Of a stretch of DNA of 32,916 bases, positions 1 through 19,248 are shown piece after piece. The stretch spans positions 1 through 32,916 of the forward strand of contig JAOZNS010000003.1 in the NCBI GenBank assembly GCA_029933635.1, in the 5' to 3' direction. The notes under the pieces were generated by a model. The model saw nothing but the letters and a program-made list of their open reading frames with translations. It was not told the origin of the DNA and searched no databases. A program made the position numbers and the translations under genes. Position 1 is the first letter of the stretch. The number at the start of each line of letters is the position of its first letter. This DNA comes from Candidatus Zixiibacteriota bacterium. GTDB lineage: Bacteria > Zixibacteria > MSB-5A5 > SM1-73.

Positions 1-10
1 AAATTATCAA

Positions 11-922
11 TTGGGTTTTATCGTAACCGCCTGTTTTGTAATCAAAAATAATGTGAGATATTTTTACAGGATTAAGGCCATCTCCACTTCGGGAACATCT
101 CTATCGTTGCCCAGCAATCCAGCCTTTTCCAAGGTGCAATGGTTTGATCTTAGCAGGTTGACTTTATTTATCTTGGCGGTGATAATCGGGTTTGCCATCT
201 TTTATTTCATCAACAAAGCTAAGACCGGAAAGGAACTTTTCATCCGCAAGATCGCTGGGTTGGAGGCGGTGGATGATGCGGTTGGTCGGGCAACCGAGAT
301 GGGAAGGAAGATAATTTATATCCCCGGGATCATGGATATGGACAGCATGCAGACCATCGCTGGAGTGACCATCCTTGGAAGGGTGGCCAAGCTGGTAGCC
401 GAATACGAAGCCAAACTTGAGGTTCCTGTGTCGAGATCTCTGGTGATGGTAACCTGCAGAGAGGTGGTTAAGGAGGCATTTCTTAATGCTGGAAGACCGG
501 ATGCTTATAACGACAACATGGTGTATTACCTCACAGACGATCAGTTCGGCTATGCTGCGGCACTGGATGGACTCTTCTTAAGGGACAAACCTGCGGCTGT
601 TTTCCTTCAGGGTCAGTTTTATGCGGAGTCCCTCATCTTGGCTGAGACTGCCAACTCGGTGGGAGCCATCCAAATTGCTGGAACCGCCATGCCCACTCAG
701 CTTCCCTTTTTCGTCGCCGCCTGCGATTATACCCTAATAGGAGAGGAGCTATTTGCCGCCTCAGCCTATCTTTCTAAGGATCCCAAGCTTTTGGGAAGCC
801 TCAAAGGACAGGATGTGGGCAAGCTCATATTTCTTTTAACCATACTGGTAGGGGTTACCCTGCTTACCCTTAATTCTCTTTTAGGATGGAATCTCCCTGA
901 TTTGACCACCATACTATTCTAA
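11..922 (+). CDS. Cassette 1 gene A: DUF6754-like membrane protein, probably 5'-partial
   Basis: Frame is open to the window edge, so the TTG at 11 is probably not the true start. Fn3-like tail YFYRIKA...S..SNP precedes a TM helix. Motifs GRATEMG, AESLILAET and QLPFFVAACDYTLIGEELFAASAYL are shared with 3228-4469 and 6719-7591. Family name is from recall. Confidence 0.8.
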   Translation: MGFIVTACFVIKNNVRYFYRIKAISTSGTSLSLPSNPAFSKVQWFDLSRLTLFILAVIIGFAIFYFINKAKTGKELFIRKIAGLEAVDDAVGRATEMGRKIIYIPGIMDMDSMQTIAGVTILGRVAKLVAEYEAKLEVPVSRSLVMVTCREVVKEAFLNAGRPDAYNDNMVYYLTDDQFGYAAALDGLFLRDKPAAVFLQGQFYAESLILAETANSVGAIQIAGTAMPTQLPFFVAACDYTLIGEELFAASAYLSKDPKLLGSLKGQDVGKLIFLLTILVGVTLLTLNSLLGWNLPDLTTILF

Positions 923-938
923 GGAGTGAAGAAAGAAA

Positions 939-1589
939 ATGCGAAGAGAGGTTCCCTTAGTTTTGACCGCCATCGTGGGGCTGACTATGATAGTTGCCCA
1001 TTTCATCCCGCCCTTTAACATATTGAAGGACCTTTTCGAGGATTGGTTTTTCATAATAGCCGCATTTGCCATCTATTTGGGAGTTTTAAACCTGCTTAAG
1101 GTCAATGCGGATAAGGTTTATAAAAAGGAAAGGGATTGGCCCTTTGGGGTGGTGGTGATTTTGGGGTTTCTTCTGATAACCATAGTGGGGCTATTTTTCT
1201 CCGGAGGAGCCAAGCATTTCCTTGATCCGGGCACACCTTTCTTTTATCTGTATGATCATGTCTATTATCCACTTTCTGCCACCATGTTTGCCCTTCTGGC
1301 TTTCTTTGTCGCTTCAGCCTCTTATCGAGCTTTTCGAGCAAGGAACGTGGATGCCACCATGCTCTTGGTTGCTGCTTTTGTGTTGATGTTGGGGCGGGTC
1401 CCAGTTGGAGACTGGATCAGCGCCTGGCTTCCAGAGGGATACAGGTTAGGAGATGCGGCCGATTGGATTATGGATTTTCCTCAGACGGCGGGACAGAAGG
1501 CTATCATGATCGGCATAGCCTTAGGGGTGATCTCCTCGGCACTGAGGGTCATACTTGGACTGGAGAGGACCTATATGGGAGGGGAGTGA
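939..1589 (+). CDS. Cassette 1 gene B: polytopic membrane protein of unknown function
   Basis: About 6 hydrophobic segments. Motifs ATMFALLAFFVASASYRAFRAR and ILGLERTYMGGE are conserved in 4490-5107 and 7654-8274. AAGGAG upstream. Confidence 0.85.
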   Translation: MRREVPLVLTAIVGLTMIVAHFIPPFNILKDLFEDWFFIIAAFAIYLGVLNLLKVNADKVYKKERDWPFGVVVILGFLLITIVGLFFSGGAKHFLDPGTPFFYLYDHVYYPLSATMFALLAFFVASASYRAFRARNVDATMLLVAAFVLMLGRVPVGDWISAWLPEGYRLGDAADWIMDFPQTAGQKAIMIGIALGVISSALRVILGLERTYMGGE

Positions 1590-1595
1590 TCGAAG

Positions 1596-2462
1596 ATGAA
1601 CCAAAAGACCGACCAGAATGAAAAGAGTTTTTGGCAGACCCTTCTCAATATAGATCGAAGGATCATCTTTCTTTTCATCGCGGTTGCGGTTGCATTGCCG
1701 TTGTTCTTCAGAATTTCAATGCACATACCGGTGACTCCGGTGGCGCGAGGGGTATATGATGCCATAGAGAGCCTTCCTCCCGGCTCTAAAGTGTTAGTCT
1801 CGTTTGATTATGATCCCGGATCCATGCCGGAACTTCAGCCAATGGCTGAGGCATTCTTCCGCCATGCTTTCGGGAAGGATCTGAAGGTGATCATTATGGG
1901 ACTCTGGCCGCAGGGTCCCTTGCAGGCAAACATTGCCCTAAAGGAGGTCTTCAAGGACGAGGAGATAAGGGCGAAAAATCTTCAGTATGGCATAGATTAT
2001 GTCAATTTAGGATTCACCGCGGGCAACGAGGTGGTGATCGACCGAATGGGGCACAGCTTTGAGGAATCTTATCCTCAGGATAGCAGGGGAACGCCCCTTT
2101 CTCAAATTCCCCTGATGAGAGGCGTGAGGAGCTATGACAACATTGATCTGATATACAATCTTTCTGCCGGCTATCCGGGGACCCAGGAATGGGTGCAATA
2201 TGCGGTGGACGTTTTTCATGTGAAATTGGTTGCAGGCAATACCGCAGTTCAAGCACCCTCCATGTATCCTTATGTTCAGACGGGTCAACTGCTGGGGGTT
2301 CTGGGTGGGATGAAGGGTGGAGCTGAATACGAGGTTGCCATAGGGCGACCGGGAAAAGCAGTAAGATATATGTTCTCTCAAGCCATAGCTCATGCGGTGA
2401 TCTGTCTGTTCATCATCATAGGTAACTTGGCTTTCTTCTCGCTGAAAAAGAAGAGATCTTAG
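1596..2462 (+). CDS. Cassette 1 gene C: soluble alpha/beta domain between N- and C-terminal TM helices
   Basis: DRR-TM start, DYDPGSMPE, YGIDYVNLGF, GQLLGVLGGMKGGAEYE, final TM and basic tail KKKRS. Paralogous to 5125-5949 and 8359-9207. Confidence 0.85.
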   Translation: MNQKTDQNEKSFWQTLLNIDRRIIFLFIAVAVALPLFFRISMHIPVTPVARGVYDAIESLPPGSKVLVSFDYDPGSMPELQPMAEAFFRHAFGKDLKVIIMGLWPQGPLQANIALKEVFKDEEIRAKNLQYGIDYVNLGFTAGNEVVIDRMGHSFEESYPQDSRGTPLSQIPLMRGVRSYDNIDLIYNLSAGYPGTQEWVQYAVDVFHVKLVAGNTAVQAPSMYPYVQTGQLLGVLGGMKGGAEYEVAIGRPGKAVRYMFSQAIAHAVICLFIIIGNLAFFSLKKKRS

Positions 2463-2475
2463 CTGGAGGTTGACC

Positions 2476-3135
2476 ATGAGTGGAGAAGCTGTGGGATTGT
2501 GGATCGGTGCCCTTTTGACCCTGGGAATTTTCAGCTTTCTATATAAAGATAACCCCTTCTATAAATTCTCCGAAGCTTTGTTTGTGGGCGTATCTGCTGG
2601 CTATTGGTTCGTGGTCACTTACTTCAATTACTTTTTACCCAAATTGGTGGATAACCTGACTTTGGCTTATACCGAGCTGGTCACCCATGGGAGGGTGGAC
2701 TATCACTGGGTTTACTTGGTGGGAGGAGCGCTGGGGATCTTGATGCTTTTGAGGCTTCTGCCCAAGGTGGGGTGGTTGTCCCGATGGTCTTTGGCTTTTG
2801 TGGTGGGAACCACCGCTGGACTGCAATTCACCCGTTACCTGCAGAGCAACGGAATAATTCAGGTGAAGGGAACCATTCTTCCCTTATTTGTTGGGGGAGA
2901 TCTGCATGCCACCATCGGCAACATTGTGATCGTGGTAGGAACATTCTGTGGCTTGATCTATTTCTTCTTCTCCAAGGAACATAAAGGCGCCTTTGGCGGA
3001 GCCGCTCGGTTGGGAGTATGGTTTTTGATGATTACCTTTGGAGCCTTATTCGGATACACGGTGATGAGCCGTATGTCGCTTTTGATCGGGAGGATGTATT
3101 ATCTTTTCCATTATTGGTTAGGTTTGATCGGATAA
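2476..3135 (+). CDS. Cassette 1 gene D: polytopic membrane protein of unknown function
   Basis: Motifs IFSFLYKDNPFYK.SE...VGVSAGY and LIYFFFSKEHKG are conserved in 5960-6598 and 9238-9864. ATG 2476 preferred over TTG 2470 because GGAGG lies at 2465-2469. Confidence 0.85.
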   Translation: MSGEAVGLWIGALLTLGIFSFLYKDNPFYKFSEALFVGVSAGYWFVVTYFNYFLPKLVDNLTLAYTELVTHGRVDYHWVYLVGGALGILMLLRLLPKVGWLSRWSLAFVVGTTAGLQFTRYLQSNGIIQVKGTILPLFVGGDLHATIGNIVIVVGTFCGLIYFFFSKEHKGAFGGAARLGVWFLMITFGALFGYTVMSRMSLLIGRMYYLFHYWLGLIG

Positions 3136-3227
3136 GTTGGTTAAAGCGTTTAAGAGGAACGTAGATCGGATCGTTAAATTTTTTGGTTGCAAACACCCCA
3201 TTTTGGTCACTGGTAGAAGAGGTGATG

Positions 3228-4469
3228 ATGAAAAACAGAGTTGTTTTTTGCAATAAGTTTTTGTCAAGCTTGGTGGTGGGACTTTGGTTTCTCCTTCTGA
3301 TGGGGACCTCTTGGGCTCAACAGGCTCAGAGGATCTCAGCTGAAGATTCGTTGGCGCTGTTACCTTCCCCTCCTACTGAGGTGATGGCGAAAGATGCTCC
3401 CAATGATGGGGGACATGCTCTTTTGGTCACCTGGAAGCTTTCAGCTGACGATGGGGCAGGCAGAAACAACGTGATCTCTTATGAGATATTAAGATCGGAT
3501 AATCCGGACTCCGGTTTTGTGGTAAGGGGAATGGTGCCCGCGGGAACAAATACTTACAAGGATGAAGGGGTTAAGGAGAAGGATTCGGAGAATTATTTCC
3601 CCAGTCACAAAAATTTTTACTACAAGGTAAGGGCCAATGCAGAGAGGGGCTCATCCGAATCTGAGGTTTCCCCGCCAGCTTATGCTTATGGTCAGCTATT
3701 TCACACCGGCAAGACGGTAATCTTTGTGGCTTGTGTGCTCTTCTCGGTCTTCACCGTGATCTTTATCAGAAAAGCCAAGCGGGGAGAGGAGCTTTATGTG
3801 CGTCCCATTGCAGGAATCTCCGCTGTGGACGAAGCTATAGGCAGAGCGACCGAGATGGGAAAGCCGATCCTTTACATTCTGGGATTGGGAACGGCAGCGG
3901 AGATCGCAACAATCGCTTCCTTCACCATACTCTCTCGCATAGCCAAGATGACCGCAGAATATCGGACCCCCATTTTGGTTCCCTGCAGGGATCCCATAGT
4001 GATGATGGTGGCCCAAGAGACGGTGAAAGCCGCTTATCTGGATGCGGGAAGACCGGATATGTATAAGGAGGAAAACATCTACTACATCACCTCCATGCAG
4101 TTCGCCTATGTGGCCGCGGTGAACGGAATCATGTTGAGGGAAAGGCCGGCGACCAACTTCTATATGGGAAAATTCTATGCCGAATCTCTGATCCTGGCAG
4201 AAACCGGATCGGTGGCAGGGTCCATTCAGATCTCTGGCACAGATGAGATCGCTCAGATCCCCTTCTTCGTGGCCGCCACCGACTATACCTTGATTGGAGA
4301 GGAACTTTACGCCGCCTCCGCTTACTTGGGCAGAGAACCATTACTTTTGGGTTCGCTTAAGGCTCAGGATTGGGGAAAGGCTTTGGTGATGATCAGCCTG
4401 ATCTTGGGGGGGCTGGCGGCAACGTTTTCCCTTAATTTCTTTGTAAACCTGTTTGCGATAAAACTTTAA
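3228..4469 (+). CDS. Cassette 2 gene A: signal peptide + fibronectin type III-like domain + DUF6754-like domain
   Basis: GAGGTG at 3219-3224 supports ATG 3225/3228. Signal-like N-terminus ends SWA-QQ. Fn3 pattern PSPPT.V...LVTW...YEILRS...YKD...YYKVRA, then TM and the conserved gene A motifs. Confidence 0.85.
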   Translation: MKNRVVFCNKFLSSLVVGLWFLLLMGTSWAQQAQRISAEDSLALLPSPPTEVMAKDAPNDGGHALLVTWKLSADDGAGRNNVISYEILRSDNPDSGFVVRGMVPAGTNTYKDEGVKEKDSENYFPSHKNFYYKVRANAERGSSESEVSPPAYAYGQLFHTGKTVIFVACVLFSVFTVIFIRKAKRGEELYVRPIAGISAVDEAIGRATEMGKPILYILGLGTAAEIATIASFTILSRIAKMTAEYRTPILVPCRDPIVMMVAQETVKAAYLDAGRPDMYKEENIYYITSMQFAYVAAVNGIMLRERPATNFYMGKFYAESLILAETGSVAGSIQISGTDEIAQIPFFVAATDYTLIGEELYAASAYLGREPLLLGSLKAQDWGKALVMISLILGGLAATFSLNFFVNLFAIKL

Positions 4470-4489
4470 TCATCCAAGGGGTTTTAAGC

Positions 4490-5107
4490 ATGCGTGGACA
4501 GCTTCCCGTCGTAATCGTCTTCATCTCGGGCGTGTTCATGGCCGTTCAATACTTCATTCCCCACGATGCGGGAGTATTCTTTTATGAGTATGGATTGGAT
4601 TGGATCATTGTCATCGGAGTCTTTGCCATGCTTTTGGGCATCTGGAGCCTGTTTCGAGTTCAACTGGATAAGGTGACCAAGAAAGCTCCCGGGTGGGGAT
4701 ATAGCGTGGTGGCTTTGGGCGGGCTTTTTTTCATGCTGATCGGCGGTCCCTTATGGGGGATCGAGGAGGGAACCCCTTTTATGCAGGTCTTCTGGTATAT
4801 CTATACCCCCATTCAAGCCACCATGTTTTCCCTCTTGGCCTTCTATATCGCCTCTGCCGCCTATCGGGCTTTTCGGGCTAGAACCGTTCTGGCAACCATT
4901 CTGCTTCTGACCGCATTGGTGATCATGCTTCGTTTGATCCCCTTAGGACCCATCTCCGGTCCAAATCAGAAGTTAGCCACTTGGATCTTAATGGTTCCCA
5001 GCATGGCAGCCAATCGAGCCATCTTGATCGGGATAGGGTTGGGAATTGTAGCCACCTGTTTGAAGATCATCTTGGGGATTGAGAGAGCATATATGGGGCA
5101 CGATTAA
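4490..5107 (+). CDS. Cassette 2 gene B: polytopic membrane protein
   Basis: QATMFSLLAFYIASAAYRAFRAR; ILGIERAYMG; paralogue of 939-1589. Confidence 0.85.
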   Translation: MRGQLPVVIVFISGVFMAVQYFIPHDAGVFFYEYGLDWIIVIGVFAMLLGIWSLFRVQLDKVTKKAPGWGYSVVALGGLFFMLIGGPLWGIEEGTPFMQVFWYIYTPIQATMFSLLAFYIASAAYRAFRARTVLATILLLTALVIMLRLIPLGPISGPNQKLATWILMVPSMAANRAILIGIGLGIVATCLKIILGIERAYMGHD

Positions 5108-5124
5108 GTTGTTGGAGGCAAAAA

Positions 5125-5949
5125 ATGGATTTTTATGAAAGATTGATGAATTTGGATCGAAGGTGGGTTTATCTGGTGGTGGGTATAGCGGTAATCATCC
5201 CGGTTTTAAATCCCTTTCGGGTGCCCGTTTTCGTCACCCAAGAGGTTAAAGCTATTTACGATTTTGTGGAGAGCCTGGAGCCGGGAGATATTCTCTTTCT
5301 GGCGATTGATTATGATCCCCAAGCCATGGCAGAGGTTCATCCCATGGCAAGAGCCATCATGCGCCAATGTTTTTCCAAGGATATCAAACTCATCATTTCC
5401 GCGCTTTCGCAGAATGGACCAGGGATGGCGGAGCAATTGATAAGTGAGGTGGCAAAGGAGTATAATAAGAAGAGCGGAATAGATTATTGCTATCTGGGGT
5501 ATAAGCCTTATTTCGGCTTGGTCATTCTGGCGATGGGGCAGAATTTTAGAATTCCCTTTCCAGAGGACTACTATGGGGTTCCATTGGATTCCCTCCCCAT
5601 GATGCGGGGCGTCAGAAATTATGATGATGTTAAAGGGGTAATTGATATCTCCTCCGGCAACATAACCGATGCTTGGATCATATATGGCAATGGACGGTAC
5701 AACGTTAAATTAGCCATCGGGGTTACCGGAGTGATGACCGCCAATTATTATCCATTTTTAGCCTCCGGACAGATATTCGGTTTGATGGGAGGGCTTAAGG
5801 GGGCCTCGGAGTATGAGGCTCTCTCCAAAAAGGGAGATAGAGCCATCAAGATGATGAGCATCCAGACCACAGCTCACATCGTCATCATCCTGTTCATCGT
5901 GGCGGGCAACATCGGCTACTTCATGTCCCGAAGAAGGAAGGGAAAGTAA
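5125..5949 (+). CDS. Cassette 2 gene C: two-TM anchored soluble-domain protein
   Basis: LDRR-TM, DYDPQAMAE, SGQIFGLMGGLKGASEYE, basic tail RRRKGK. GGAGG RBS. Confidence 0.85.
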   Translation: MDFYERLMNLDRRWVYLVVGIAVIIPVLNPFRVPVFVTQEVKAIYDFVESLEPGDILFLAIDYDPQAMAEVHPMARAIMRQCFSKDIKLIISALSQNGPGMAEQLISEVAKEYNKKSGIDYCYLGYKPYFGLVILAMGQNFRIPFPEDYYGVPLDSLPMMRGVRNYDDVKGVIDISSGNITDAWIIYGNGRYNVKLAIGVTGVMTANYYPFLASGQIFGLMGGLKGASEYEALSKKGDRAIKMMSIQTTAHIVIILFIVAGNIGYFMSRRRKGK

Positions 5950-5959
5950 GGAGGAGAGA

Positions 5960-6598
5960 ATGGATCTGGGGACAATAATCTGGAACACCGTGGCACTTTT
6001 CTTGACCTTGTGTATATTTTCCTTCCTCTATAAGGATAATCCCTTTTATAAATTCGCAGAACATCTGGTGGTGGGAGTATCAGCCGGTTACTTCGCCATC
6101 ATCCTTTTCTATAACGGCTTCATTCCCAAGGTCTGGATACCTGTGGTCAAAAAGGGAGAGTGGTGGTATCTTTTACCGGCCATCCTTGGCTTTATGACCT
6201 GGACTCGTTTTTCGAAAAAATGGTCCTTTATCTCCCGGTTCTCCATCGCCTTTTATATGGGGATTGCGGTGGGCGTGGCTATGCCCTTGGAGATGCAACA
6301 GCGAGTGATTAAGCAACTTCACGCCAGCATGTTGCCCGTATATTTCACCAACGTGCAAGGTTTCTGGAACCTTCTTATTATTCTGGGGGTACTTTGTGGG
6401 TTGATTTATTTCTTTTTCTCCATGGAACACAAAGGAGTTGTGGGAGGAGCGGCCAGGCTTGGGATCTGGATTCTGATGATTGGATTCGGTGCAGGATTTG
6501 GATTGACCGTGATGGGAAGAATTTCCCTTCTGGCAGATAGAATAGAGTTCATGCGCGAATGGTATCTTATGCTAACCCAATTCATCTCCGGGGGGTGA
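5960..6598 (+). CDS. Cassette 2 gene D: polytopic membrane protein
   Basis: IFSFLYKDNPFYKFAE, LIYFFFSMEHKG. AGGAGG RBS. Confidence 0.85.
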   Translation: MDLGTIIWNTVALFLTLCIFSFLYKDNPFYKFAEHLVVGVSAGYFAIILFYNGFIPKVWIPVVKKGEWWYLLPAILGFMTWTRFSKKWSFISRFSIAFYMGIAVGVAMPLEMQQRVIKQLHASMLPVYFTNVQGFWNLLIILGVLCGLIYFFFSMEHKGVVGGAARLGIWILMIGFGAGFGLTVMGRISLLADRIEFMREWYLMLTQFISGG

Positions 6599-6679
6599 GG
6601 CCTCATTTATTGTTAGTTTAATTTTATCAGAATAAACTCTAATTTCTTTTGCCCTAAATATTCTTCACACGATTATGGA

Positions 6680-6701
6680 GCCTGATGAATCAGGCAACTG
6701 C
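6680..6701. repeat. REP-like palindrome between cassettes 2 and 3
   Basis: GCCTGAT-GA-ATCAGGC (6680-6695) followed by AACTGC. Reverse complement GCAGTTGCCTGATTCATCAGGC resembles GTAG-class REP elements. Confidence 0.45.
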
Positions 6702-6718
6702 AATTTCCTTCTCTTTGT

Positions 6719-7591
6719 ATGAAGATTCTTACCCGTTTGAAACCATTTCTTTTCTTTTTCCTTCTGACGCTTTTGATGGATCCATCACTATCAGTTGCTG
6801 GGGAGGATTTGTCTAAGAGTTGGTTTAACCCTCACCGGGTAAACATGCTTTTGTTTTTGATCTTCTTTTTTGCGGTGATAATCTTTTTTATCGATCGAGC
6901 CAAAAAGGGCAAAAGTCTTTTCATCCGGAGGATTGCCGGATTGGATGCCATAGAGGAGGCGGTGGGAAGAGCCACAGAGATGGGCAAGCCGGTGCTTTAT
7001 ATCTCCGGAATAGAGGATGTGGACAATATTCAAACTGTAGCCTCCATGATAATTTTGGGCAACGTTGCCAAGATGGTGGCAAGCTATGATACCCCTTTGC
7101 TTGTTCCCATATGCCGACCTTTTGTGGTTCCGGTGGCGGAGGAGAGGGTGAAGGAGGGGTATGCCGCTGCTGGCAGACCGGAGGCATATAACCGAGACAA
7201 CGTTCGTTATATCTCCGATGAACAGTTCGCCTATGCGGCTGGAGTTCAGGGGATGATGCTTCGCGATCGCCCAGCGGCTAACCTGATGTTTGGTTCCTTT
7301 TTTGCTGAATCCCTGATGTTGGCTGAAACCGGTTTTCTGGCTGGCGCCATTCAGGTGGCAGGCACAGCCAACATTCATCAACTCCCCTTCTTTGTGGTGG
7401 CATGCGATTATACCATAATTGGGGAGGAACTTTTCGCTACCAGTGCCTACCTTTCCAAGGAGCCCAAGCTCTTGGGAAGCCTGAAAGGATCGGATTTAGC
7501 CAAAGCCATAATCATGGTGATTTTAGCCTTAGGCGCTATCCTGGAGACAGCCGGGATAACTCATTTCACACGCTGGTTTTTTATCGAATAA
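6719..7591 (+). CDS. Cassette 3 gene A: DUF6754-like membrane protein without Fn3 domain
   Basis: Signal-like N-terminus, TM, GRATEMGKP, AESLMLAETG, QLPFFVVACDYTIIGEELFATSAYL. In-frame TGA at 6686 rules out an upstream extension. Confidence 0.85.
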   Translation: MKILTRLKPFLFFFLLTLLMDPSLSVAGEDLSKSWFNPHRVNMLLFLIFFFAVIIFFIDRAKKGKSLFIRRIAGLDAIEEAVGRATEMGKPVLYISGIEDVDNIQTVASMIILGNVAKMVASYDTPLLVPICRPFVVPVAEERVKEGYAAAGRPEAYNRDNVRYISDEQFAYAAGVQGMMLRDRPAANLMFGSFFAESLMLAETGFLAGAIQVAGTANIHQLPFFVVACDYTIIGEELFATSAYLSKEPKLLGSLKGSDLAKAIIMVILALGAILETAGITHFTRWFFIE

Positions 7592-7653
7592 AATTTTTTA
7601 ACACAGGGTAAGTCTTACGGAAAGATAAGTCAATTTATTACAAAGGGGTTTGG

Positions 7654-8274
7654 ATGAGACGTGAGATCCCCATGGCGATCTGCTTTCTGGCTGGCTTGTC
7701 ATTCATCCTGGAATATTTCATTCCCCATCATAAGGTCCTTTCAATCTTTGAGACCTTCCGTCAGTGGGCCATAATCGTCATTGCTTTCGCCTATGTGTTA
7801 GGGATAGCCAATATAGTAAGAATCAACTATCATGTGATCCAGAAAAAGGGAAGGGACTGGCCCTATAAGATAATCCTGGTGATCTGCCTTTTCTCCATGA
7901 TCACTGTGGGGGTTTTTGGTGGCACAGGAGAGGGAACCGTTTTCGATTGGGTCTACTATCACGCTCAGTATCCTTTACAGGCAACCATGTTTTCGCTTCT
8001 GGCATTCTTCATCGCCTCGGCGGCATTTCGGGCCTTTAGGGTCCGGACCTTTCATGCATCCCTTCTGGCGGCAACCGCCATTTTGGTGATGATCGGAAGG
8101 GTGCCGGTGGGAGAGAGCATATGGAGGCATTTCCCCGACCTGACCGAGTGGATAATGAACGTCCCTCAACTGGCCGGGAAAAGAGCCATCATGATCGGCG
8201 CGGCTCTGGGTGCCATTTCAACTGCGCTTAAGGTTCTAACCGGTTTGGAAAGAACCTATCTGGGGGGAGAATAG
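7654..8274 (+). CDS. Cassette 3 gene B: polytopic membrane protein
   Basis: MRREIP start, QATMFSLLAFFIASAAFRAFRVR, GLERTYLGGE. Confidence 0.85.
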   Translation: MRREIPMAICFLAGLSFILEYFIPHHKVLSIFETFRQWAIIVIAFAYVLGIANIVRINYHVIQKKGRDWPYKIILVICLFSMITVGVFGGTGEGTVFDWVYYHAQYPLQATMFSLLAFFIASAAFRAFRVRTFHASLLAATAILVMIGRVPVGESIWRHFPDLTEWIMNVPQLAGKRAIMIGAALGAISTALKVLTGLERTYLGGE

Positions 8275-8358
8275 GAAACTCTTGTGGGAATTTAAAGATG
8301 ATTTATCTTTTAACTTTGGCATAGGTGAGGAAGGGCCAGAATCCTTCGAGGAAAAGAA

Positions 8359-9207
8359 GTGAAGAAATTTATGGAAAAACTTGAGCGGCTGGATAGAAGG
8401 GTGATATTTGTCTTTATTGCTATCTCCGTCGCTTTACCCTTACTTTTTCCGGTGTATTTGGATTTTTCCGTCACCCCCCCGGTTCAAAGTTTTTATGATG
8501 CTATAGAGAAGCTTCCTCCGGGCTCCAAGGTGTTGGTCTCCTGTGATTATGACCCCGGCTCCATGCCGGAGCTTTTTCCCATGAACGTGGCGGTATTTTA
8601 TCATCTCCTCTCCCGGGATCTTAAGGTCATCACCATTCAGCTTTGGGCCACCGGCACCCTTTTGGCAGAGCGAGCCATGACTGAGGTTTTAAAGGAGTTC
8701 CCGGAGAAGAAATATGGGCAGGACTGGGTGAATCTGGGGTTCAAGGAGGGAAGAGAGGTGGTGATGGTCTCAATGGGGACCAGCATACCGAAAACCTTTC
8801 CCACCGACTCACGTGGAAGCAAAGTGGAGGATATCCCCATCATGGAAGGGGTGAAAAATTTTGATGATTTCGCTCTTTTGGTGAATATATCTGGCGGTTT
8901 GCCGGGGACCAAAGAATGGGTGCTTCAGGTGCAATCCAGATACCATGTGAAGCTGGGCTCCGGATGCACGGCGGTCAGCGCACCGGAGTTTTACCCCTAT
9001 GTTCAATCAGGACAACTGGTGGGGCTTTTGGGGGGAATGAAGGGGGCGGCTGAATATGAGAAGTTGGTGAAAAGACCTGGAACCGCACAAAGAGGAATGG
9101 ACGCTCAGTCGGTCTCACATATCGTGGTCTTTTTGTTTATCCTGATCGGGAACATTGCCTATTTCTCAGTCAAGGGAACCAGGAAAAGACTTAAAGTTTC
9201 ACGATAG
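8359..9207 (+). CDS. Cassette 3 gene C: two-TM anchored soluble-domain protein
   Basis: LPPGSKVLVSCDYDPGSMPEL, SGQLVGLLGGMKGAAEYE. GTG start; ATG 8371 is an alternative. Confidence 0.85.
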   Translation: MKKFMEKLERLDRRVIFVFIAISVALPLLFPVYLDFSVTPPVQSFYDAIEKLPPGSKVLVSCDYDPGSMPELFPMNVAVFYHLLSRDLKVITIQLWATGTLLAERAMTEVLKEFPEKKYGQDWVNLGFKEGREVVMVSMGTSIPKTFPTDSRGSKVEDIPIMEGVKNFDDFALLVNISGGLPGTKEWVLQVQSRYHVKLGSGCTAVSAPEFYPYVQSGQLVGLLGGMKGAAEYEKLVKRPGTAQRGMDAQSVSHIVVFLFILIGNIAYFSVKGTRKRLKVSR

Positions 9208-9237
9208 TGCTTAAGTTTGAGTCGGGAGTAGAAGTTC

Positions 9238-9864
9238 ATGCCGATAGAGGAAACAATAGGAATCTGGGTGGGTGCCTTTTTGACCCTGTGTATATTTTCC
9301 TTCCTGTATAAGGATAATCCCTTTTATAAGCTGGCCGAACACATATTTGTGGGGATATCTGCAGGATACTGGGCTACACTGGAATGGCATAACGTCTTTC
9401 TACCTAATCTATGGAAACCACTTACCCAGGAAGGAAGGCTTCTTCTTCTGGTTCCCTTCGCCTTTGGAATTTTGCTTTTCGGACGTTTCACCAAAAAATA
9501 TAGCTGGCTTTCCCGCTGGTCCATGGCGCTGATCATCGGAATCTATGCAGGAATAACCATAGTGGGCTATGGATCAGGAGATCTGATACTTCAGATTCAC
9601 GCCAATTTGCTTCCCTTGTGGACCGACGATTGGTTCACCTCCTTAAATAATATCCTATTAACCGTTGGGGTGATAACCGGTCTGATCTACTTCTTCTTCT
9701 CCAAGGAACACAAGGGACTCTTTGGGGCCGGAGCCAAAGTAGGCATCTGGTTTCTGATGATCTCCTTTGGGGCTTCATTTGGCTATACGGTCATGTCCCG
9801 TATGTCTCTTCTGATCGGCAGAATATACTTTCTTTTAGGAAACTGGCTCCATCTTTTGGAGTAA
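9238..9864 (+). CDS. Cassette 3 gene D: polytopic membrane protein
   Basis: IFSFLYKDNPFYKLAE, LIYFFFSKEHKG, YTVMSRMSLLIGR. Confidence 0.85.
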   Translation: MPIEETIGIWVGAFLTLCIFSFLYKDNPFYKLAEHIFVGISAGYWATLEWHNVFLPNLWKPLTQEGRLLLLVPFAFGILLFGRFTKKYSWLSRWSMALIIGIYAGITIVGYGSGDLILQIHANLLPLWTDDWFTSLNNILLTVGVITGLIYFFFSKEHKGLFGAGAKVGIWFLMISFGASFGYTVMSRMSLLIGRIYFLLGNWLHLLE

Positions 9865-10132
9865 TTCCCGGCCACCTGAAATCGTTGGTGTTCAACTGGG
9901 GCAATCTTATCTTTTCGACGACACGATTATGAACAAAGACATCCCCGGCTTATCAGGAGGAGTTTCTCATTTCGCTTTTGGAGAAGGTGTGGGTCTTTCT
10001 TATTTAGGTTGGGAGATTTAATGTAAGTTATTGTATTTGAGAGTCAAATAAAAAAGCATCAACTCTTAGCGAAAAAGATCAGTCTAAAAGGGTGAGGTTG
10101 AAAATCACTCTTTTTTTGCTTTTTCTATCTTT

Positions 10133-10168
10133 CCCTCACCCTAACCCTCTCCCCAAGGGGAGAGGGAA
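10133..10168. repeat. BoxC-like palindromic element
   Basis: CCCTCACCCTAACCCTCTCCCC-AA-GGGGAGAGGGAA. Perfect 10-bp stem (10145-10154 / 10157-10166) with a pyrimidine-rich leader typical of BoxC-type repeats. Confidence 0.7.
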
Positions 10169-10348
10169 CTAACTGTAAATCTATCAACCTTGTGGGTTTT
10201 AAATCATGAAGGTGCGACCTGAAATACGAAAGAACCGGAAATGCCAGGTCTTTCGCATTTTCCCCAAGATTAAAATGAAAAGGAACAGATCTTTCAATTA
10301 TCCCCATAGGGGGAGAGGTTCTAAGATCCTGCGCCTGATGATTTTGGA

Positions 10349-10426
10349 TAGGGGCGAATCTGAAGATTTTCTCTTTTGATTCGGTCAGTTGACTCAAATG
10401 AGGTGGAGTTAAAGCTCTACCCCTAC
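10349..10426. repeat. Degenerate GTAG-type REP doublet (REPIN-like)
   Basis: TAGGGGCGAATC... at left and ...GCTCTACCCCTAC at right in inverted orientation, each with an imperfect internal hairpin. Confidence 0.4.
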
Positions 10427-10606
10427 ATAAACTACGCCAGCACAATATGGACCACCTCCAGGAAATTTCATTCGAAGCTACATTTTTATTTCTCTCGCCC
10501 TAACAACAACCTGCAAAGAACTCTTTTGAGAATGACCCAAAACGTTTAAGCCATTTCCGCAGGATTCAAATGAAGAGGTTTTTTACTCCATCTCATAAAT
10601 GAATTT

Positions 10607-10637
10607 AAAAAAAAGCCCCGCCGTTTAAAGGCGGGGC
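10607..10637 (-). terminator. Rho-independent terminator of the dcw operon
   Basis: Minus strand GCCCCGCC-TTTAAAC-GGCGGGGC-TTTTTTTT, about 105 nt after the ftsZ stop. Confidence 0.85.
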
Positions 10638-10741
10638 CTGTCGCAAAGGAGGCATTGAGGGTCACTAAAGGAGGTATAAGATAGACGGTCATTCTTTCGA
10701 AATCTGCCAATCGGTATGTTTCGAAAAATAATCTTATATTT

Positions 10742-11893
10742 TCATCCCTCGTTTTGTTTCCTCAAAAAAGTGGGAACCTCCCAGTCATCTGCCTGATATG
10801 AGCGAACCTTGCTTCTGGATGAGACCTGGTGAGGCTTCCCCAGAGGTTCCTTTTGTTTCAGCGAGTTTTTTTCCAAAATCAGCTTGCCTGATGAGAAAAG
10901 GTCGGAGCCGGATTCGGTTTCCTCGCTTTTCAGATTATTGCCAAATCCAGTGGCGATGACCGTTACCCTGATCTCATCCTGAAGATTCTCATCTATCACC
11001 GCGCCGAAGATGATGTTGGCCTCGGTCCCCGCCGCCTCGGCAACCAAGCTGGCGGCCTCATTTACCTCAAGAAGTCCCATATTACTGTTGCCCGTGATGT
11101 TGATTAAAACAGCCTTAGCTCCATTTATGGAGACGTTATCCAGAAGGGGACTGGAGATAGCCTGGGTGGCAGCTTCCTTGGCGCGATTCTCACCGATTCC
11201 GTATCCAATGCCCATGAGCGCATCTCCCATCTCCGACATCACGGTCTTGACATCTGCAAAGTCCAGATTGATTAAGCCGGGGACGCTGATAAGGTCGGAG
11301 ATCCCTTTGGTGGCTTGAAGCAGAACCTCATCTGCCATCCTGAAAGCATCGGTGAGCTTGGTATCTGGGTTGGCTAAGCTCAAAAGCTTCTGGTTGGGAA
11401 TGACTATCAAAGTATCCACCTTATCCTTTAGCTCCTCAATTCCCATAAGGGCGCGGCTCATACGCTTTTTTCCTTCAAAATCAAAAGGCTTGGTTACGAT
11501 CCCGATGGTTAAGGCTCCCTGATCTTTAGCCAGCTCTGCAACAATGGGACAGGCGCCGGTGCCGGTGCCACCTCCCATTCCGGCGGTGACGAAGATCATA
11601 TCCGCACCCAAAAGTGATTCTGCCACCACATCCCTGTCCTCCTCAATCGCCCTTCTGCCGATCTCCGGACTGGCTCCTGCGCCTAATCCTTTGGTAAGGC
11701 GAGAGCCGATCTGGACCCTATGGGTGGCTTTGCAATTCTCCAAATCCTGGAGGTCGGTATTTATGGAGATGAAATCCACTCCCGAGAGTCCAGCGTCGAT
11801 CATTCGATTGACAGCATTCCCTCCGGCCCCACCCACCCCTACCACCTTCATCCGGGCGTAATTTTCATAACTTGTGTCCAGCTCAAAAAACAT
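10742..11893 (-). CDS. ftsZ: Cell division GTPase FtsZ
   Basis: GVGGAGGNA, GMGGGTGTG, INLDFADV, C-terminal EVPTFLRKQ. Confidence 0.98.
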   Translation of the reverse strand: MFFELDTSYENYARMKVVGVGGAGGNAVNRMIDAGLSGVDFISINTDLQDLENCKATHRVQIGSRLTKGLGAGASPEIGRRAIEEDRDVVAESLLGADMIFVTAGMGGGTGTGACPIVAELAKDQGALTIGIVTKPFDFEGKKRMSRALMGIEELKDKVDTLIVIPNQKLLSLANPDTKLTDAFRMADEVLLQATKGISDLISVPGLINLDFADVKTVMSEMGDALMGIGYGIGENRAKEAATQAISSPLLDNVSINGAKAVLINITGNSNMGLLEVNEAASLVAEAAGTEANIIFGAVIDENLQDEIRVTVIATGFGNNLKSEETESGSDLFSSGKLILEKNSLKQKEPLGKPHQVSSRSKVRSYQADDWEVPTFLRKQNEG

Positions 11894-11919
11894 AGCTTCT
11901 CCCTCCCTCTTTTGGAATT

Positions 11920-13146
11920 TTAAAGATATGAACTAAAAATGTTTTTCATCTTTTGAAACCATCCCTTTGCCTTCAGGCGTCCTCTTAGCTTTCCTTCTCT
12001 CATCTGTTCCCATCCGTAGAGGATCAGCCCCACTCCAGTCGAATAGATGGGGCTGGAGGCATGTTCCTCCAGACCGGCTAAGCCTTGTGGTTTTCCGGTT
12101 CGCACCGGAACATCAAATATCTTTTCTGCCAGCTCCACCATTCCTGGCATCAACGATCCTCCGCCGGTGAGAACGATTCCGGCGGTTAAAAGGTCAAAAA
12201 AGTTACTTTTTTTCATTTCTTGAAGGGTAAGGCTAAGTATTTCCTCCACCCGGGGTTCGATTATTGCGGAAAGCACAGTTCGGGAGATCTGTTGAGGCTT
12301 TCTCCCCCCCACCCCAGGAACCTCAATGGTCTCATCCGGATCCACCAGGCTGGATATGGCACAACCGTAGAGTTTTTTAATCTCCTCAGCCTGATCCACC
12401 GGCGTTCTTAGACCAATGGCCACATCGTTGGTGATGTTTTTTCCTCCTAAGCCCACCACCCCGGTGTGTCTGATGGAGCCGTCATAGAAGATGGCAAAAT
12501 CGGTGGTTCCCCCTCCCAGATCCAAAAGCGCCACCCCTAACTCCTCCTCATCCGGAGACAATAGTGCGTAGCTGGTGGCAAGGGGTTGAAGCACCAGATC
12601 CTTTACCTCCACTCCAGCCTTTTTTACGCTCCGGTAGATGTTCTGAGCGGAGGTAATAGCTCCGGTGACTATATGAACCTCGGTTTCTAACCTCACCCCC
12701 ACCATTCCCACCGGATCTTTGACTCCGGTTTGATCATCCACCGTGAACTCCTGAGGCAGGACATGGATGATTTCCCGATCCATGGGCAAGGCAACCGTCT
12801 TGGCAGCTTCGATAACCTTCTCCACATCCGTGGGGGTGATCTCGTGATCGGAGCCAGATACTGCGATCACCCCTCTGCTGTTGATGCTTCGGATGTGATC
12901 GCCAGCTATGCCAGCAAAGACGGAGTCCACCTTAACTCCTGCCATCATCTCCGCATCTTCCACCGCGGTAGCTATCGACTCCACGGTCCTCTCCAGGTTG
13001 ATGACCACTCCCCGCTTCAGTCCTTCCGATGGACTGGTGCCAATACCAATTATCTTGGGTTGCCCGGACTCACCTATCTCTGAAATGATGGCTGCTATCT
13101 TGGTGGTCCCTATATCCAAACCGACGATTTGACTTTCATCTCCCAT
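11920..13146 (-). CDS. ftsA: Cell division protein FtsA
   Basis: GLDIGTTK, LDLGGGTTD, VLTGGGS, amphipathic C-terminus; position before ftsZ. Confidence 0.97.
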   Translation of the reverse strand: MGDESQIVGLDIGTTKIAAIISEIGESGQPKIIGIGTSPSEGLKRGVVINLERTVESIATAVEDAEMMAGVKVDSVFAGIAGDHIRSINSRGVIAVSGSDHEITPTDVEKVIEAAKTVALPMDREIIHVLPQEFTVDDQTGVKDPVGMVGVRLETEVHIVTGAITSAQNIYRSVKKAGVEVKDLVLQPLATSYALLSPDEEELGVALLDLGGGTTDFAIFYDGSIRHTGVVGLGGKNITNDVAIGLRTPVDQAEEIKKLYGCAISSLVDPDETIEVPGVGGRKPQQISRTVLSAIIEPRVEEILSLTLQEMKKSNFFDLLTAGIVLTGGGSLMPGMVELAEKIFDVPVRTGKPQGLAGLEEHASSPIYSTGVGLILYGWEQMREGKLRGRLKAKGWFQKMKNIFSSYL

Positions 13147-13161
13147 GTCTGCCTCTTGGTC

Positions 13162-13998: not shown

Positions 13999-13999
13999 A

Positions 14000-15373: not shown

Positions 15374-15448
15374 AATCGATACTGGGTGATCCCAAAGCCT
15401 CGGTTATTTTATCTTTATGGGTTTGCATAATTTTTAAACCCACGGTTC

Positions 15449-17679: not shown

Positions 17680-17691
17680 CTGACCTTTTCC

Positions 17692-19200: not shown

Positions 19201-19248
19201 ACTGTTTTTCTCAACATAATCAACGGTGAGAGACATATGATCCACTTT

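What the first reader, a model, noticed from the sequence alone, without database searches (positions are those of the whole stretch)
11..9864. Triplicated four-gene membrane cassette (DUF6754-like A + B + C + D): candidate undescribed transport or sensing complex
Seen: twelve co-oriented ORFs repeat in strict A-B-C-D order three times. All are membrane-associated, apparently intact (A1 is cut by the window edge) and diverged, yet keep invariant motifs: A GRATEMG / DYT.IGEEL.A.SAYL; B ATMF.LLAF..ASA..RAFR; C DYDP / GQ..G..GG.KG..EYE; D FSFLYKDNPFYK..E / YFFFS.EHKG. I see no Walker A/B, CxxCH, Fe-S, kinase or HTH motifs. Known: this layout does not match ABC, TRAP, TTT, ECF, Mrp or Rnf operons as I recall them. 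Inference: a stoichiometric four-subunit, ATP-independent complex, probably a secondary transporter, with paralogues specialised for different substrates.
Basis: partly seen in the sequence, partly recalled or inferred. Interest (0 to 1): 0.9.

Follow-up and report, generated by a model that had tools for sequence, protein, structure and literature searches.

The report
Tripled membrane module of unknown machine
Three old copies of a four-gene membrane module sit here, and the module belongs to a conserved eight-gene system with an actin-fold ATPase that is found in many uncultivated bacterial phyla and has no studied relative.

Summary

A is DUF6754: one membrane helix, a cytoplasmic Rossmann-like domain, then a second helix. 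B and D are six-helix proteins with predicted opposite orientation. C holds a periplasmic Rossmann-like domain between two helices. B, C and D match no Pfam or NCBIfam family.

The order A-B-C-D follows 91 of 105 A genes in 79 loci from many candidate phyla. Natural C-D fusions exist.

The main new result is that the cassette does not stand alone. It is linked to, and co-occurs with, four more genes:
- t and s, two small membrane proteins
- M, a GlmL/MutL-family actin-fold ATPase
- X, a protein with an RnfC/NqrA-type barrel-sandwich domain

Both orders occur: t-s-M-X-A-B-C-D and A-B-C-D-t-s-M-X. In this genome M and X lie at a contig end that faces the cut start of the window.

In Zixibacteria, DUF6754 is in 81 of 81 genomes, mostly with 5 matches. 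X is in 80 of 81, as a single copy.

"ATP-independent secondary transporter" is not supported. My best reading is one ATPase motor shared by several membrane modules. The function is unknown, and my paper searches found no description.

The parts
2..922 (+). A1: DUF6754 protein of cassette 1. Its 5' end is cut by the contig end. What remains is the tail of a beta-rich ectodomain, a membrane helix, a cytoplasmic Rossmann-like domain and a C-terminal membrane helix.
   Evidence: ORF. PF20539 match at E = 4.6e-123. 49-55% identical to A2 and A3. Its orthologue is the first A of L007 and L008, at 75-78%.
939..1589 (+). B1: six-helix membrane protein, predicted N-terminus inside.
   Evidence: No family over a Pfam cut-off; the weak TauE match is seen in only 1 of 96 family members.
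1596..2462 (+). C1: protein with two membrane helices and a periplasmic Rossmann-like domain between them.
   Evidence: Fold inferred from the C3 model.
2470..3135 (+). D1: six-helix membrane protein, predicted N-terminus outside.
   Evidence: No Pfam hit at E <= 1.
3183..4469 (+). A2: DUF6754 protein of cassette 2, with a signal peptide and a ~140-residue FN3-like ectodomain.
   Evidence: PF20539 at E = 3e-114 over residues 170-423. The ectodomain of the A profile hits a solved 'Fn3-like protein' only weakly, E = 0.0057.
4490..5107 (+). B2
   Evidence: 41% identical to B1 and B3. 65-72% identical to the second B of L007 and L008.
5125..5949 (+). C2
   Evidence: 38-40% identical to C1 and C3. 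64-72% identical to the second C of L007 and L008.
5960..6598 (+). D2
6719..7591 (+). A3: the short form of the DUF6754 protein. It has a signal peptide and a short periplasmic stub, with no ectodomain.
   Evidence: PF20539 at E = 5e-116. AlphaFold2 model with mean pLDDT 90.8.
7654..8274 (+). B3
8359..9207 (+). C3
   Evidence: AlphaFold2 model with mean pLDDT 95.3. Lysine and arginine counts place both termini inside the cell.
9238..9864 (+). D3: last gene of the array.
   Evidence: It is followed by 877 nt without an ORF of 110 aa or more, then by the convergent ftsZ gene.

Best explanation
The twelve ORFs are three ancient copies of the membrane module (A-B-C-D) of a conserved eight-gene system, t-s-M-X plus A-B-C-D.

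Anatomy, from predictions and natural variants:
- A spans the membrane twice. It carries a variable periplasmic head (FN3-like here, a BamB-like propeller in another phylum, or none) and a very conserved cytoplasmic Rossmann-like DUF6754 domain.
- C holds a Rossmann-like domain in the periplasm between two helices.
- B (N-terminus inside) and D (N-terminus outside) are six-helix proteins of about 205 aa. Their strongly conserved loops face the cytoplasm.
- M is a GlmL/MutL-family actin-fold ATPase with its nucleotide-binding motifs invariant.
- X is a soluble protein that starts with an RnfC/NqrA-type barrel-sandwich domain.

Proposed mechanism (inferred, not shown):
1. One M-X pair per genome is a cytoplasmic motor. 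It docks on the DUF6754 domain of A and on the conserved cytoplasmic loops of B and D.
2. ATP turnover drives movements through the B-D membrane core to the periplasmic domain of C and the head of A.
3. There a periplasmic or envelope ligand is moved or handled.
4. The three to five A-B-C-D modules per Zixibacteria genome are alternative membrane units that share the single motor and differ in their periplasmic parts.

The substrate and the direction are unknown.
For: The unit is real:
- 91 of 105 A genes in 79 loci are followed by B, C and D. 12 more are cut by a locus end, one (L076) is broken by a run of N, and one (L071) is truly solitary.
- All four genes of each cassette have their orthologue at the same position in L007 and L008: 63-78% identity on the diagonal against 35-57% off it.

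Link to t, s, M and X:
- M and X both lie in 33 of the 79 loci, s in 24 and t in 18, mostly as t-s-M-X-A-B-C-D.
- In another phylum the order is A-B-C-D-t-s-M-X in 4 of 4 regions fetched.
- Co-occurrence of A and X in three phyla:
  - Zixibacteria: A in 81 of 81 genomes, X in 80 of 81.
  - Phylum of G081 (151 genomes): both in 46, A only in 2, X only in 2, neither in 101.
  - Phylum of G084 (61 genomes): both in 28, A only in 2, X only in 0, neither in 31. There the two are often far apart on the chromosome.
- X is elsewhere in the genome in 4 of 5 genomes whose A-B-C-D locus showed no M or X.

This genome:
- M (L085 1820-3664, minus strand) and X (L085 1-1017, minus strand, cut at residue 339 of about 375) run off the end of contig C148.
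- A1 is cut at the start of C318.
- The closest relatives, L007 and L008, read M-X-(A-B-C-D)x3.

One motor, several modules: Zixibacteria genomes give 2-6 DUF6754 matches (5 in 56 of 81), but one X.

M and X:
- M matches PF13941 at E = 1e-129. Mean column identity is 70% over 20 sequences from several phyla. TDCGSTTTK, DxGGATTD and GSGGVLSHAP are invariant. That these are the actin-fold nucleotide-binding motifs is my recall.
- X: RnfC_N matches 5 of 14 members (best E = 5e-8) and NQRA_N matches 4 of 14.

Topology and contact:
- Lysine and arginine counts place the A domain inside and the C domain outside, B with its N-terminus inside and D with its N-terminus outside.
- The C-D fusions P0145 and P0152 carry an extra membrane helix in the linker, as this topology requires.
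- Long D forms have an N-terminal anchor helix plus an extra domain.
- Long B forms have PDZ, PD40 or FG-GAP domains inserted at the predicted periplasmic loop.

Models: A3 has pLDDT 90.8 and C3 has 95.3.
Against: - No result here shows that any two of the eight proteins touch.
- No result shows that M hydrolyses ATP or that anything is transported.
- GlmL-family proteins are known only as accessory genes of B12-dependent mutases (names of the NCBIfam models). As far as I recall, none powers a membrane complex.
- M and X could be a soluble enzyme pair that merely shares regulation with A-B-C-D.
- Four genomes have A without X: G106 and G176, G084 and G262. Two have X without A: G188 and G190. 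The completeness of these genomes is not given.
- Many cassettes, including the one on C279 of this genome, lie away from M and X.
- The folds of A and C are generic Rossmann-like, with a plateau at Z about 8-10 and no specific match.
- No expression data could be obtained.
Confidence: 0.5

Rival explanations
1. A-B-C-D is a self-sufficient, ATP-independent secondary transporter, and its paralogues take up different substrates. t-s-M-X is a neighbouring operon for metabolism or regulation of the substrate.
For: - Two six-helix subunits with opposite predicted orientation. This resembles the inverted repeats of many carriers, which is my recall.
- A periplasmic alpha/beta domain in C that could bind a solute.
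- Several diverged copies per genome.
- No Walker A motif in the cassette.
- Many cassettes lie away from M and X.
Against: - No match of B, C or D to any transporter family in Pfam or NCBIfam.
- A and X co-occur almost perfectly in two phyla where the system is patchy: 74 genomes have both, 6 have only one, and 132 have neither.
- The eight genes stay together in two different orders.
- DUF6754 is in 81 of 81 Zixibacteria genomes, which is unusual for accessory uptake systems.
- The periplasmic inserts are protein-binding modules (propellers, PDZ, FN3-like) rather than solute-binding folds.
Confidence: 0.15
2. An ion-translocating coupling complex built like Rnf or Nqr. X is the peripheral subunit (like NqrA or RnfC). 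B and D are the antiparallel six-helix pair (like RnfA/RnfE). A and C are the membrane-anchored cytoplasmic and periplasmic domains. A cytoplasmic reaction run by M-X is coupled to ion flow across the membrane.
For: - The N-terminus of X matches RnfC_N in 5 of 14 members and NQRA_N in 4 of 14. ESM Atlas clusters of X carry RnfC_N in 19% of their members.
- B and D are about 205 aa each, have six helices and have opposite predicted orientation.
- Very high conservation and presence in every Zixibacteria genome searched fit a bioenergetic enzyme.
- Transhydrogenase domain III is among the fold matches of both A and C, at Z 7.8-9.2.
Against: - hhalign of the B and D profiles against E. coli RsxA and RsxE gives probabilities under 1%.
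- No Rnf-Nqr Pfam hit.
- No conserved cysteine in B, D or X. A, C and D each have only one Cys or His column conserved at 80% or more, so there are no Fe-S or haem sites.
- No counterpart of RnfD/NqrB.
- No known ion pump uses an actin-fold ATPase (my recall).
Confidence: 0.12
3. An envelope sensor or signal-relay complex. Variable periplasmic heads sense envelope or external cues, and the conserved DUF6754 domain passes the signal to M-X in the cytoplasm.
For: - The periplasmic modules vary widely: FN3-like, BamB-like propeller, PD40, FG-GAP, PDZ and EF-hand.
- In this genome one cassette (contig C279) has a Ser/Thr protein kinase and a LiaF-like envelope-stress protein inserted between B and C. 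The LiaF-like gene recurs in the same place in L067.
Against: - No known signalling output domain in any of the eight proteins.
- Twelve membrane helices in B plus D is more than a relay would be expected to need (inference).
- The kinase and LiaF-like insert is seen in 2 loci only.
Confidence: 0.12

Closest known systems
Rnf / Na+-NQR redox-driven ion pumps
   Same: - A peripheral cytoplasmic subunit that begins with an RnfC_N/NQRA_N barrel-sandwich domain (X).
- Two membrane subunits of about 200 aa with six helices each and opposite predicted orientation (B and D).
- One membrane-anchored cytoplasmic domain and one membrane-anchored periplasmic domain (A and C).

The layout of Rnf and Nqr is from my recall.
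   Different: - No sequence relation of B or D to RsxA or RsxE.
- No Rnf-Nqr Pfam hit.
- No conserved Cys or His sites for Fe-S clusters or flavins.
- No subunit like RnfD/NqrB.
- An actin-fold ATPase is present instead of an NADH or ferredoxin site.
GlmL/MutL accessory proteins of B12-dependent glutamate mutase and the GlmL-related ornithine-degradation protein Or-4
   Same: M matches Pfam MutL (PF13941) end to end, at E = 1e-129 over profile positions 1-450.
   Different: - M scores below every NCBIfam cut-off: GlmL 233.9 against 475, Or-4 220.6 against 600, and glmL_fam 175.1 against 204.
- It has about 130 extra C-terminal residues.
- No mutase gene was seen beside it in the loci inspected.
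- It is linked to membrane proteins instead.
ECF and ABC importers, or PTS, with a shared energising module
   Same: The logic is the same: one cytoplasmic energy module per genome (M-X, single copy) and several membrane modules (2-6 DUF6754 matches).
   Different: - No ABC ATPase, no Walker A motif in the cassette, and no EcfT or S-component.
- No PTS family hit in A-D.
- PtsI does lie upstream of the cassette on C279.
Actin-fold ATPases with bitopic and polytopic membrane partners (MreB-MreC-MreD, PilM-PilN-PilO)
   Same: An actin-fold ATPase is encoded with bitopic proteins that bear periplasmic domains and with small polytopic proteins. The comparison is from my recall.
   Different: - M belongs to the GlmL/hydantoinase branch, not the MreB, FtsA or PilM branch.
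- No Pfam MreC, MreD, PilN or PilO hits.
- The neighbouring dcw cluster is not syntenic: FtsZ, FtsA, FtsQ and MurC were found in 0 of 79 related loci.
Proton-translocating transhydrogenase (PntB domain III), sirtuins, RCK/KTN domains, GT-B half-domains
   Same: The soluble domains of A and C have the same general doubly wound alpha/beta fold.
- A: Z 10.1 to Sir2A, 9.6 to TrkA-N, 9.2 and 9.0 to transhydrogenase domain III.
- C: Z 9.9 to MT0777, 8.7 to SIRT1, 8.0 to transhydrogenase domain III.
   Different: - The scores form a plateau: 197 chains at Z >= 8 for A, with sequence identity of 5-14%.
- Foldseek gave no hit at E <= 0.001 for A and only generic hits for C.
- No sequence hit in the PDB.

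Membership tests
Pfam DUF6754 (PF20539) | Match to the family HMM above the gathering score of 27 bits | tested here: met
   A2 scores 380.9 bits and A3 386.7 bits. A1 scores 409.5 bits.
Rnf / Nqr | Membrane subunits of the Rnf-Nqr family (the RnfA/RnfE/NqrD/NqrE type) | tested here: not met
   No Pfam hit at E <= 0.01 for B2, B3, D2 and D3, or at E <= 1 for B1 and D1. hhalign of the B and D profiles against E. coli RsxA and RsxE gives probabilities of 0.16-0.48%.
Rnf / Nqr | Conserved cysteines in the six-helix pair that hold the Fe-S cluster (recalled feature) | tested here: not met
   No Cys column is conserved at 80% or more in B (96 sequences) or D (80 sequences).
Rnf / Nqr | Peripheral subunit with an RnfC_N/NQRA_N barrel-sandwich domain | tested here: met
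   X: RnfC_N in 5 of 14 members (best E = 4.9e-8) and NQRA_N in 4 of 14 (best E = 1.5e-5). hhalign against the whole of E. coli RsxC aligned only 21 residues, at probability 1.9%.
ABC transporters | Walker A ATPase encoded in or with the permease genes | tested here: not met
   No [AG]xxxxGK[ST] pattern in the 12 cassette proteins. No ABC family hit for A-D. The linked ATPase M is PF13941.
TRAP, TTT, ECF, Mrp, PTS and other curated transporter families | Match of a membrane subunit to the family's Pfam or NCBIfam model | tested here: not met
   No family for B2, B3, C2, C3, D2 or D3 at E <= 0.01 in Pfam-A or NCBIfam. Among the 96 B members, the commonest hit is TMD0_ABC in 12 and TauE is hit in 1, with no model hit by more than 12.
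GlmL / MutL (methylaspartate mutase accessory protein) | Score above the NCBIfam equivalog or subfamily cut-offs | tested here: not met
   M: NF040745 233.9 against 475, NF040744 220.6 against 600, TIGR01319 175.1 against 204.05. The broader Pfam MutL model is met at 433.4 bits against 27.
Anti-phage defence systems (PADLOC) | Match to a PADLOC model | tested here: not met
   No hit for 7 of 8 proteins (A3, C3, D3, M, X, t, s). B3 gave only weak '2TM effector' hits, at E = 0.002 and 0.0068.
DHS-like / Sir2 / transhydrogenase dIII NAD(P)-binding domains | A specific structural match that stands above other Rossmann-like folds | tested here: inconclusive
   These domains are among the top rows for A (Z 10.1-9.0) and C (Z 8.7-7.8), but they tie with RCK, GT-B and SDR folds.

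The most novel reading that the evidence does not exclude
A previously unrecognised class of envelope machine. A GlmL-type actin-fold ATPase (M), with an RnfC/NqrA-like adaptor (X), powers interchangeable four-subunit membrane modules (A-B-C-D). These modules reach into the periplasm with protein-binding heads. The machine is a core, multi-copy feature of Zixibacteria and is widespread in other uncultivated phyla. It would be the first membrane translocase or transducer driven by this ATPase family.
Probability: 0.35. Interest if true: 0.9.

Novelty: categorically new. Interest (0 to 1): 0.8.

Why it matters
- The family is large. The word-index search returned 7,985 DUF6754 proteins at E <= 0.001 among its capped 8,000 candidates.
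- It is present in every one of 81 Zixibacteria genomes sampled.
- None of the eight proteins has a studied relative apart from the generic ATPase family of M.
- All 79 related loci come from metagenome-assembled or uncultured records, so the system has escaped genetics.
- If the eight proteins form one ATP-driven machine, it would add a new kind of energy coupling at the bacterial inner membrane. It would also give a function to thousands of "hypothetical" genes in candidate phyla.
- Even the modest result corrects how these genes should be annotated and studied: the unit is eight genes, not four, with one motor for several modules.

Tried and rejected
**Complex prediction.** Complex prediction on A3+B3+C3+D3 with A as the partner returned "no answer". 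The scores were 0.77, 0.74 and 0.75. The control with C replaced scored 0.73, and the controls with A replaced scored 0.00. I use it neither for nor against binding.

**Expression.** The look-up of sequencing runs (kind rna) listed no RNA holder.

**Sequence searches of the PDB.**
- The profiles of B, C and D gave nothing better than E = 0.57.
- The A profile gave only a weak FN3-like hit for the ectodomain.
- X and M gave nothing.

**Fold searches.**
- Foldseek on the PDB gave no hit at E <= 0.001 for A.
- For C it gave four generic Rossmann hits at E <= 0.001.
- The VIA wide searches gave plateaus of Rossmann-like folds.

**Internal homology.** hhalign of A against C and of B against D found no relation, with probabilities of 2.2% and 0.65%. 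An origin as an "inverted duplicate" is therefore unsupported by sequence, although A and C share the fold type.

**ESM Atlas.** For B it returned only unnamed clusters.

**Other tests that gave nothing.**
- Defence system: rejected.
- Link to the neighbouring cell-division cluster: rejected. FtsZ, FtsA, FtsQ and MurC were found in 0 of 79 related loci.
- Fusions of A with B, or of any neighbouring pair in the 79 loci: none found. None of the 33 long B relatives or the 120 listed long D relatives carries PF20539.
- Promoter-like and terminator-like sites in 1-10800 are not clearly above the shuffles: 20 against 13.7 +/- 3.4, and 18 against 14.6 +/- 4.1.
- No Rfam family and no tRNA in the window.

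**Literature.** Three full-text searches were run and only the listings were seen.
- 'DUF6754' gave 0 papers.
- 'PF13941', 'PF20539', 'GlmL family', 'GlmL-like' and 'MutL-like ATPase' gave 0 papers.
- 'GlmL' or 'Zixibacteria' gave 1,125 papers; none of the 15 listed was relevant.
- No paper was opened.

Full report
**1. The observation**

Positions 2-9864 hold twelve + strand ORFs in the order A-B-C-D, three times, separated by 6-120 nt. Copies of one family are 37-55% identical, with BLASTP E-values of 8e-48 to 2e-107. Different families do not resemble each other. None of the twelve proteins has a Walker A, CxxCH or CxxC pattern. The window starts at the start of contig C318 of a 364-contig assembly of 2.77 Mb, estimated 94% complete, so A1 is cut by the assembly. 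The best database hits to A3 are named Zixibacteria.

**2. The four proteins**

- **A** is Pfam DUF6754, at E = 3e-114 to 5e-123. An AlphaFold2 model of A3 (pLDDT 90.8) shows:
  - a signal-peptide-like helix and a membrane helix
  - an alpha/beta domain of six parallel strands (residues ~70-247)
  - a long C-terminal membrane helix
- A2 and most relatives carry a beta-rich head of about 100-140 residues between the signal peptide and the first helix. It gives only a weak FN3-like hit, E = 0.0057. In another phylum the head is a ~500-residue BamB/PQQ_2-like propeller. It scores 55 bits in one protein and 24-25 bits, below the cut-off, in two others.
- **C** (model pLDDT 95.3) has an N-terminal helix, an alpha/beta domain and a C-terminal helix.
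- **Topology of A and C.** Counts of lysine and arginine over the family alignments put the A domain in the cytoplasm. They put the C domain in the periplasm with both C termini inside.
- **B** has six hydrophobic segments, with its positive loops 2 and 4 inside, so its N-terminus is inside. **D** has about six segments, and its positive loops 1, 3 and 5 (including FLYKDNPFYK and FFSKEHKG) are inside, so its N-terminus is outside.
- **Natural variants agree with this topology:**
  - Two C-D fusion proteins (P0145 of 593 aa and P0152 of 635 aa) have one extra membrane helix in the linker.
  - Longer D forms begin with an anchor helix and an extra domain.
  - Longer B forms have PDZ, PD40 or FG-GAP modules inserted in the middle of the protein, at the predicted periplasmic loop 3.
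- **Family searches.** B, C and D match no Pfam or NCBIfam family. No profile finds a solved structure by sequence.
- **Fold searches.** The folds of A and C are generic. Both score best against sirtuins, MT0777, RCK/KTN domains, GT-B halves and transhydrogenase domain III, at Z about 8-10 on a broad plateau.
- **Cofactor sites.** A, C and D each have only one Cys or His column conserved at 80% or more, and B has none. Fe-S or haem sites are therefore unlikely.

**3. The cassette elsewhere**

I examined the 79 best loci. All 79 are metagenome-assembled or "uncultured" records. By title they include 14 Zixibacteria, 11 Eisenbacteria, 5 WOR-3, 5 Fermentibacteria/Aegiribacteria and 3 Cloacimonadota. 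Coatesbacteria, Stahlbacteria, Edwardsbacteria, Hatepunaea, Calditrichaeota and others also appear.

Of the 105 A genes in these loci:
- 91 are followed by B, C and D in that order
- 12 are cut by a locus end
- one (L076) is broken by a run of N
- one (L071) is truly alone

Sixteen of the 79 loci hold two or more complete cassettes. This genome has five cassettes: three here, one on C279, and one split over C351 and C211.

The triplication is old. In L007 and L008 each of the three positions holds the orthologue of the same position here, for all four genes, at 63-78% identity against 35-57% off the diagonal.

**4. The main new result: four more genes**

Clustering the flanking ORFs showed recurrent neighbours:
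- **t**: about 150 aa, two hydrophobic segments, and a weak YcxB-like tail
- **s**: about 130 aa, a hydrophobic stretch and a charged tail
- **M**: about 610 aa, Pfam MutL/GlmL at E = 1e-129
- **X**: about 375 aa, with no family of its own. Its N-terminus matches RnfC_N in 5 of 14 members, NQRA_N in 4 of 14 and Biotin_lipoyl in 6 of 14 (lead)

M and X both lie in 33 of the 79 loci, s in 24 and t in 18, mostly as t-s-M-X-A-B-C-D. In a different phylum the order is A-B-C-D-t-s-M-X in 4 of 4 regions fetched. The two four-gene blocks therefore stay together in either order.

Co-occurrence of A and X:

| Group | Genomes | Both | A only | X only | Neither |
|---|---|---|---|---|---|
| Zixibacteria | 81 | 80 | 1 | 0 | 0 |
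| Phylum of G081 | 151 | 46 | 2 | 2 | 101 |
| Phylum of G084 | 61 | 28 | 2 | 0 | 31 |

In the phylum of G084 the genes are often far apart on the chromosome. X was also found elsewhere in 4 of 5 genomes whose A-B-C-D locus lacked it. Related genomes are not independent, and the completeness of most of these genomes is not given.

M and X are very conserved. Mean column identity is 70% for M over 20 sequences and 67% for X over 14 sequences from several phyla. In M, TDCGSTTTK, DxGGATTD and GSGGVLSHAP are invariant. I recall these as the phosphate-1, phosphate-2 and adenosine motifs of actin-fold ATPases. M scores below all NCBIfam cut-offs for GlmL, Or-4 and glmL_fam, so it is a separate branch of that family.

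**5. This genome**

- M lies on contig C148 (L085 1820-3664, minus strand). X follows at L085 1-1017, minus strand, and runs off the contig end at residue 339 of about 375.
- A1 is cut at the start of C318.
- The nearest relatives read M-X-(A-B-C-D)x3.
- The two contig ends therefore most probably join, with about 0.5 kb missing. This is an inference.
- A nucleotidyltransferase/HEPN gene pair sits between M and X here.

**6. How it may work**

Shown:
- the gene content
- the conserved order in two permutations
- co-occurrence across three phyla
- confident models of A and C
- a topology supported by natural fusions and inserts
- one X per genome against 2-6 DUF6754 matches (5 in 56 of 81 genomes; the tool warns that matches are not copy numbers)

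Inferred:
- The eight proteins form one machine.
- A single M-X motor docks on the cytoplasmic DUF6754 domain and on the conserved cytoplasmic loops of B and D.
- ATP turnover is passed through the B-D core to the periplasmic domain of C and the head of A.
- The several A-B-C-D modules are alternative membrane units.

The periplasmic add-ons are FN3-like domains, propellers, PDZ and EF-hand. As I recall, these modules bind proteins or polymers. For that reason I lean towards handling of an envelope or periplasmic macromolecule rather than uptake of a small solute.

I give the whole reading 0.5. The claim that A-B-C-D belongs to an eight-gene system I would put near 0.85. The ATP-driven transduction step I would put near 0.4.

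**7. Rivals**

- An ion-coupling complex with an Rnf/Nqr-like layout: 0.12.
- An envelope sensor: 0.12.

The layout shared with Rnf/Nqr is striking: a barrel-sandwich peripheral subunit, two antiparallel six-helix subunits of about 200 aa, and anchored domains on both faces of the membrane. However, hhalign against E. coli RsxA and RsxE gives probabilities under 1%, and there are no cofactor ligands.

**8. Novelty**

DUF6754 is a catalogued family of unknown function. B, C, D, X, t and s have no family in the copies of Pfam and NCBIfam used here. Three literature searches found nothing on the system. Only listings were seen, and supplements are closed. No known kind of transporter, pump, secretion system or defence system passes a membership test. 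I therefore rate it categorically new in kind, with its function unknown.

**9. Limits**

- The complex prediction gave no verdict.
- No RNA runs were listed.
- B, D, M and X were not folded.

Noticed in passing
window 10742-27529, minus strand: A complete cell-division and cell-wall (dcw) cluster lies convergent with the cassette array. By Pfam match it contains MraZ, MraW, a DivIC-like protein, a PBP transpeptidase with a PASTA domain, two Mur ligases, a family-4 glycosyltransferase (MraY-type), a MurD-like ligase, FtsW/RodA, a family-28 glycosyltransferase (MurG-type), a third Mur ligase, FtsQ-type POTRA, FtsA and FtsZ. FtsZ, FtsA, FtsQ and MurC were found in 0 of 79 related loci.
   Followed up: yes
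window 9865-10741: This 877-nt stretch between D3 and ftsZ has no ORF of 110 aa or more. It holds a strong terminator-like hairpin on the minus strand (10639-10613; 10 pairs, 8 of them G-C, followed by a T run) just downstream of ftsZ. No Rfam match.
   Followed up: partly
window 28098-30620 (+), 30943-31515 (+), 32019-32702 (+): These three ORFs are a C25 (gingipain-type) peptidase with a type IX secretion sorting tail, an exosortase-EpsH-like membrane protein, and an isochorismatase-family protein.
   Followed up: partly
L085 (G000 contig C148) 1062-1774, minus strand: A nucleotidyltransferase (Polbeta/NTP_transf_2) and HEPN gene pair is inserted between M and X in this genome. L007 and L008 have only 110-117 nt between M and X.
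   Followed up: partly
L096 (G000 contig C279) 5724-7753; cassette genes at C279 6730-12456: The fourth cassette of this genome is interrupted between B and C by a Ser/Thr protein kinase, a LiaF-like envelope-stress protein and a 105-aa ORF. It is preceded by PtsI and a PGI/PMI-type SIS protein. The LiaF-like gene is also found between B and C in L067, at 60% identity. A PGI-like protein precedes the cassette in 5 other loci, and a PtsI C-terminal fragment lies upstream of it in 5 loci (Pfam for the PGI-like protein; the PtsI fragment was identified by eye only).
   Followed up: partly
P0145, P0152 (public protein collection): These are natural C-D fusion proteins of 593 and 635 aa, with an extra membrane helix in the linker. 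Only 11 of the 120 listed long D relatives were read, so there may be more.
   Followed up: partly
L069 18777-20501; P0266, P0272, P0273; P0133, P0136, P0140, P0149: Some B variants carry a domain of about 370 aa with FG-GAP-like repeats (judged by eye for L069), or PDZ, PD40 or FG-GAP modules (precomputed Pfam), inserted in one loop. Some D variants carry EF-hand or long coiled inserts in another loop.
   Followed up: partly
L071 9920-10786: A solitary DUF6754 gene follows a PGI-like gene. It is followed by two dockerin-like small proteins instead of B, C and D. It is the only true exception among the 105 A genes.
   Followed up: partly
L010 and other Eisenbacteria-labelled loci: In these loci the eight-gene unit is flanked by gcvPB upstream. 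Downstream lie an LplA-like lipoate ligase, a TonB-dependent-receptor-like protein, a protein with a type IX sorting tail, and a PorV-like protein. This is probably synteny limited to that lineage.
   Followed up: no
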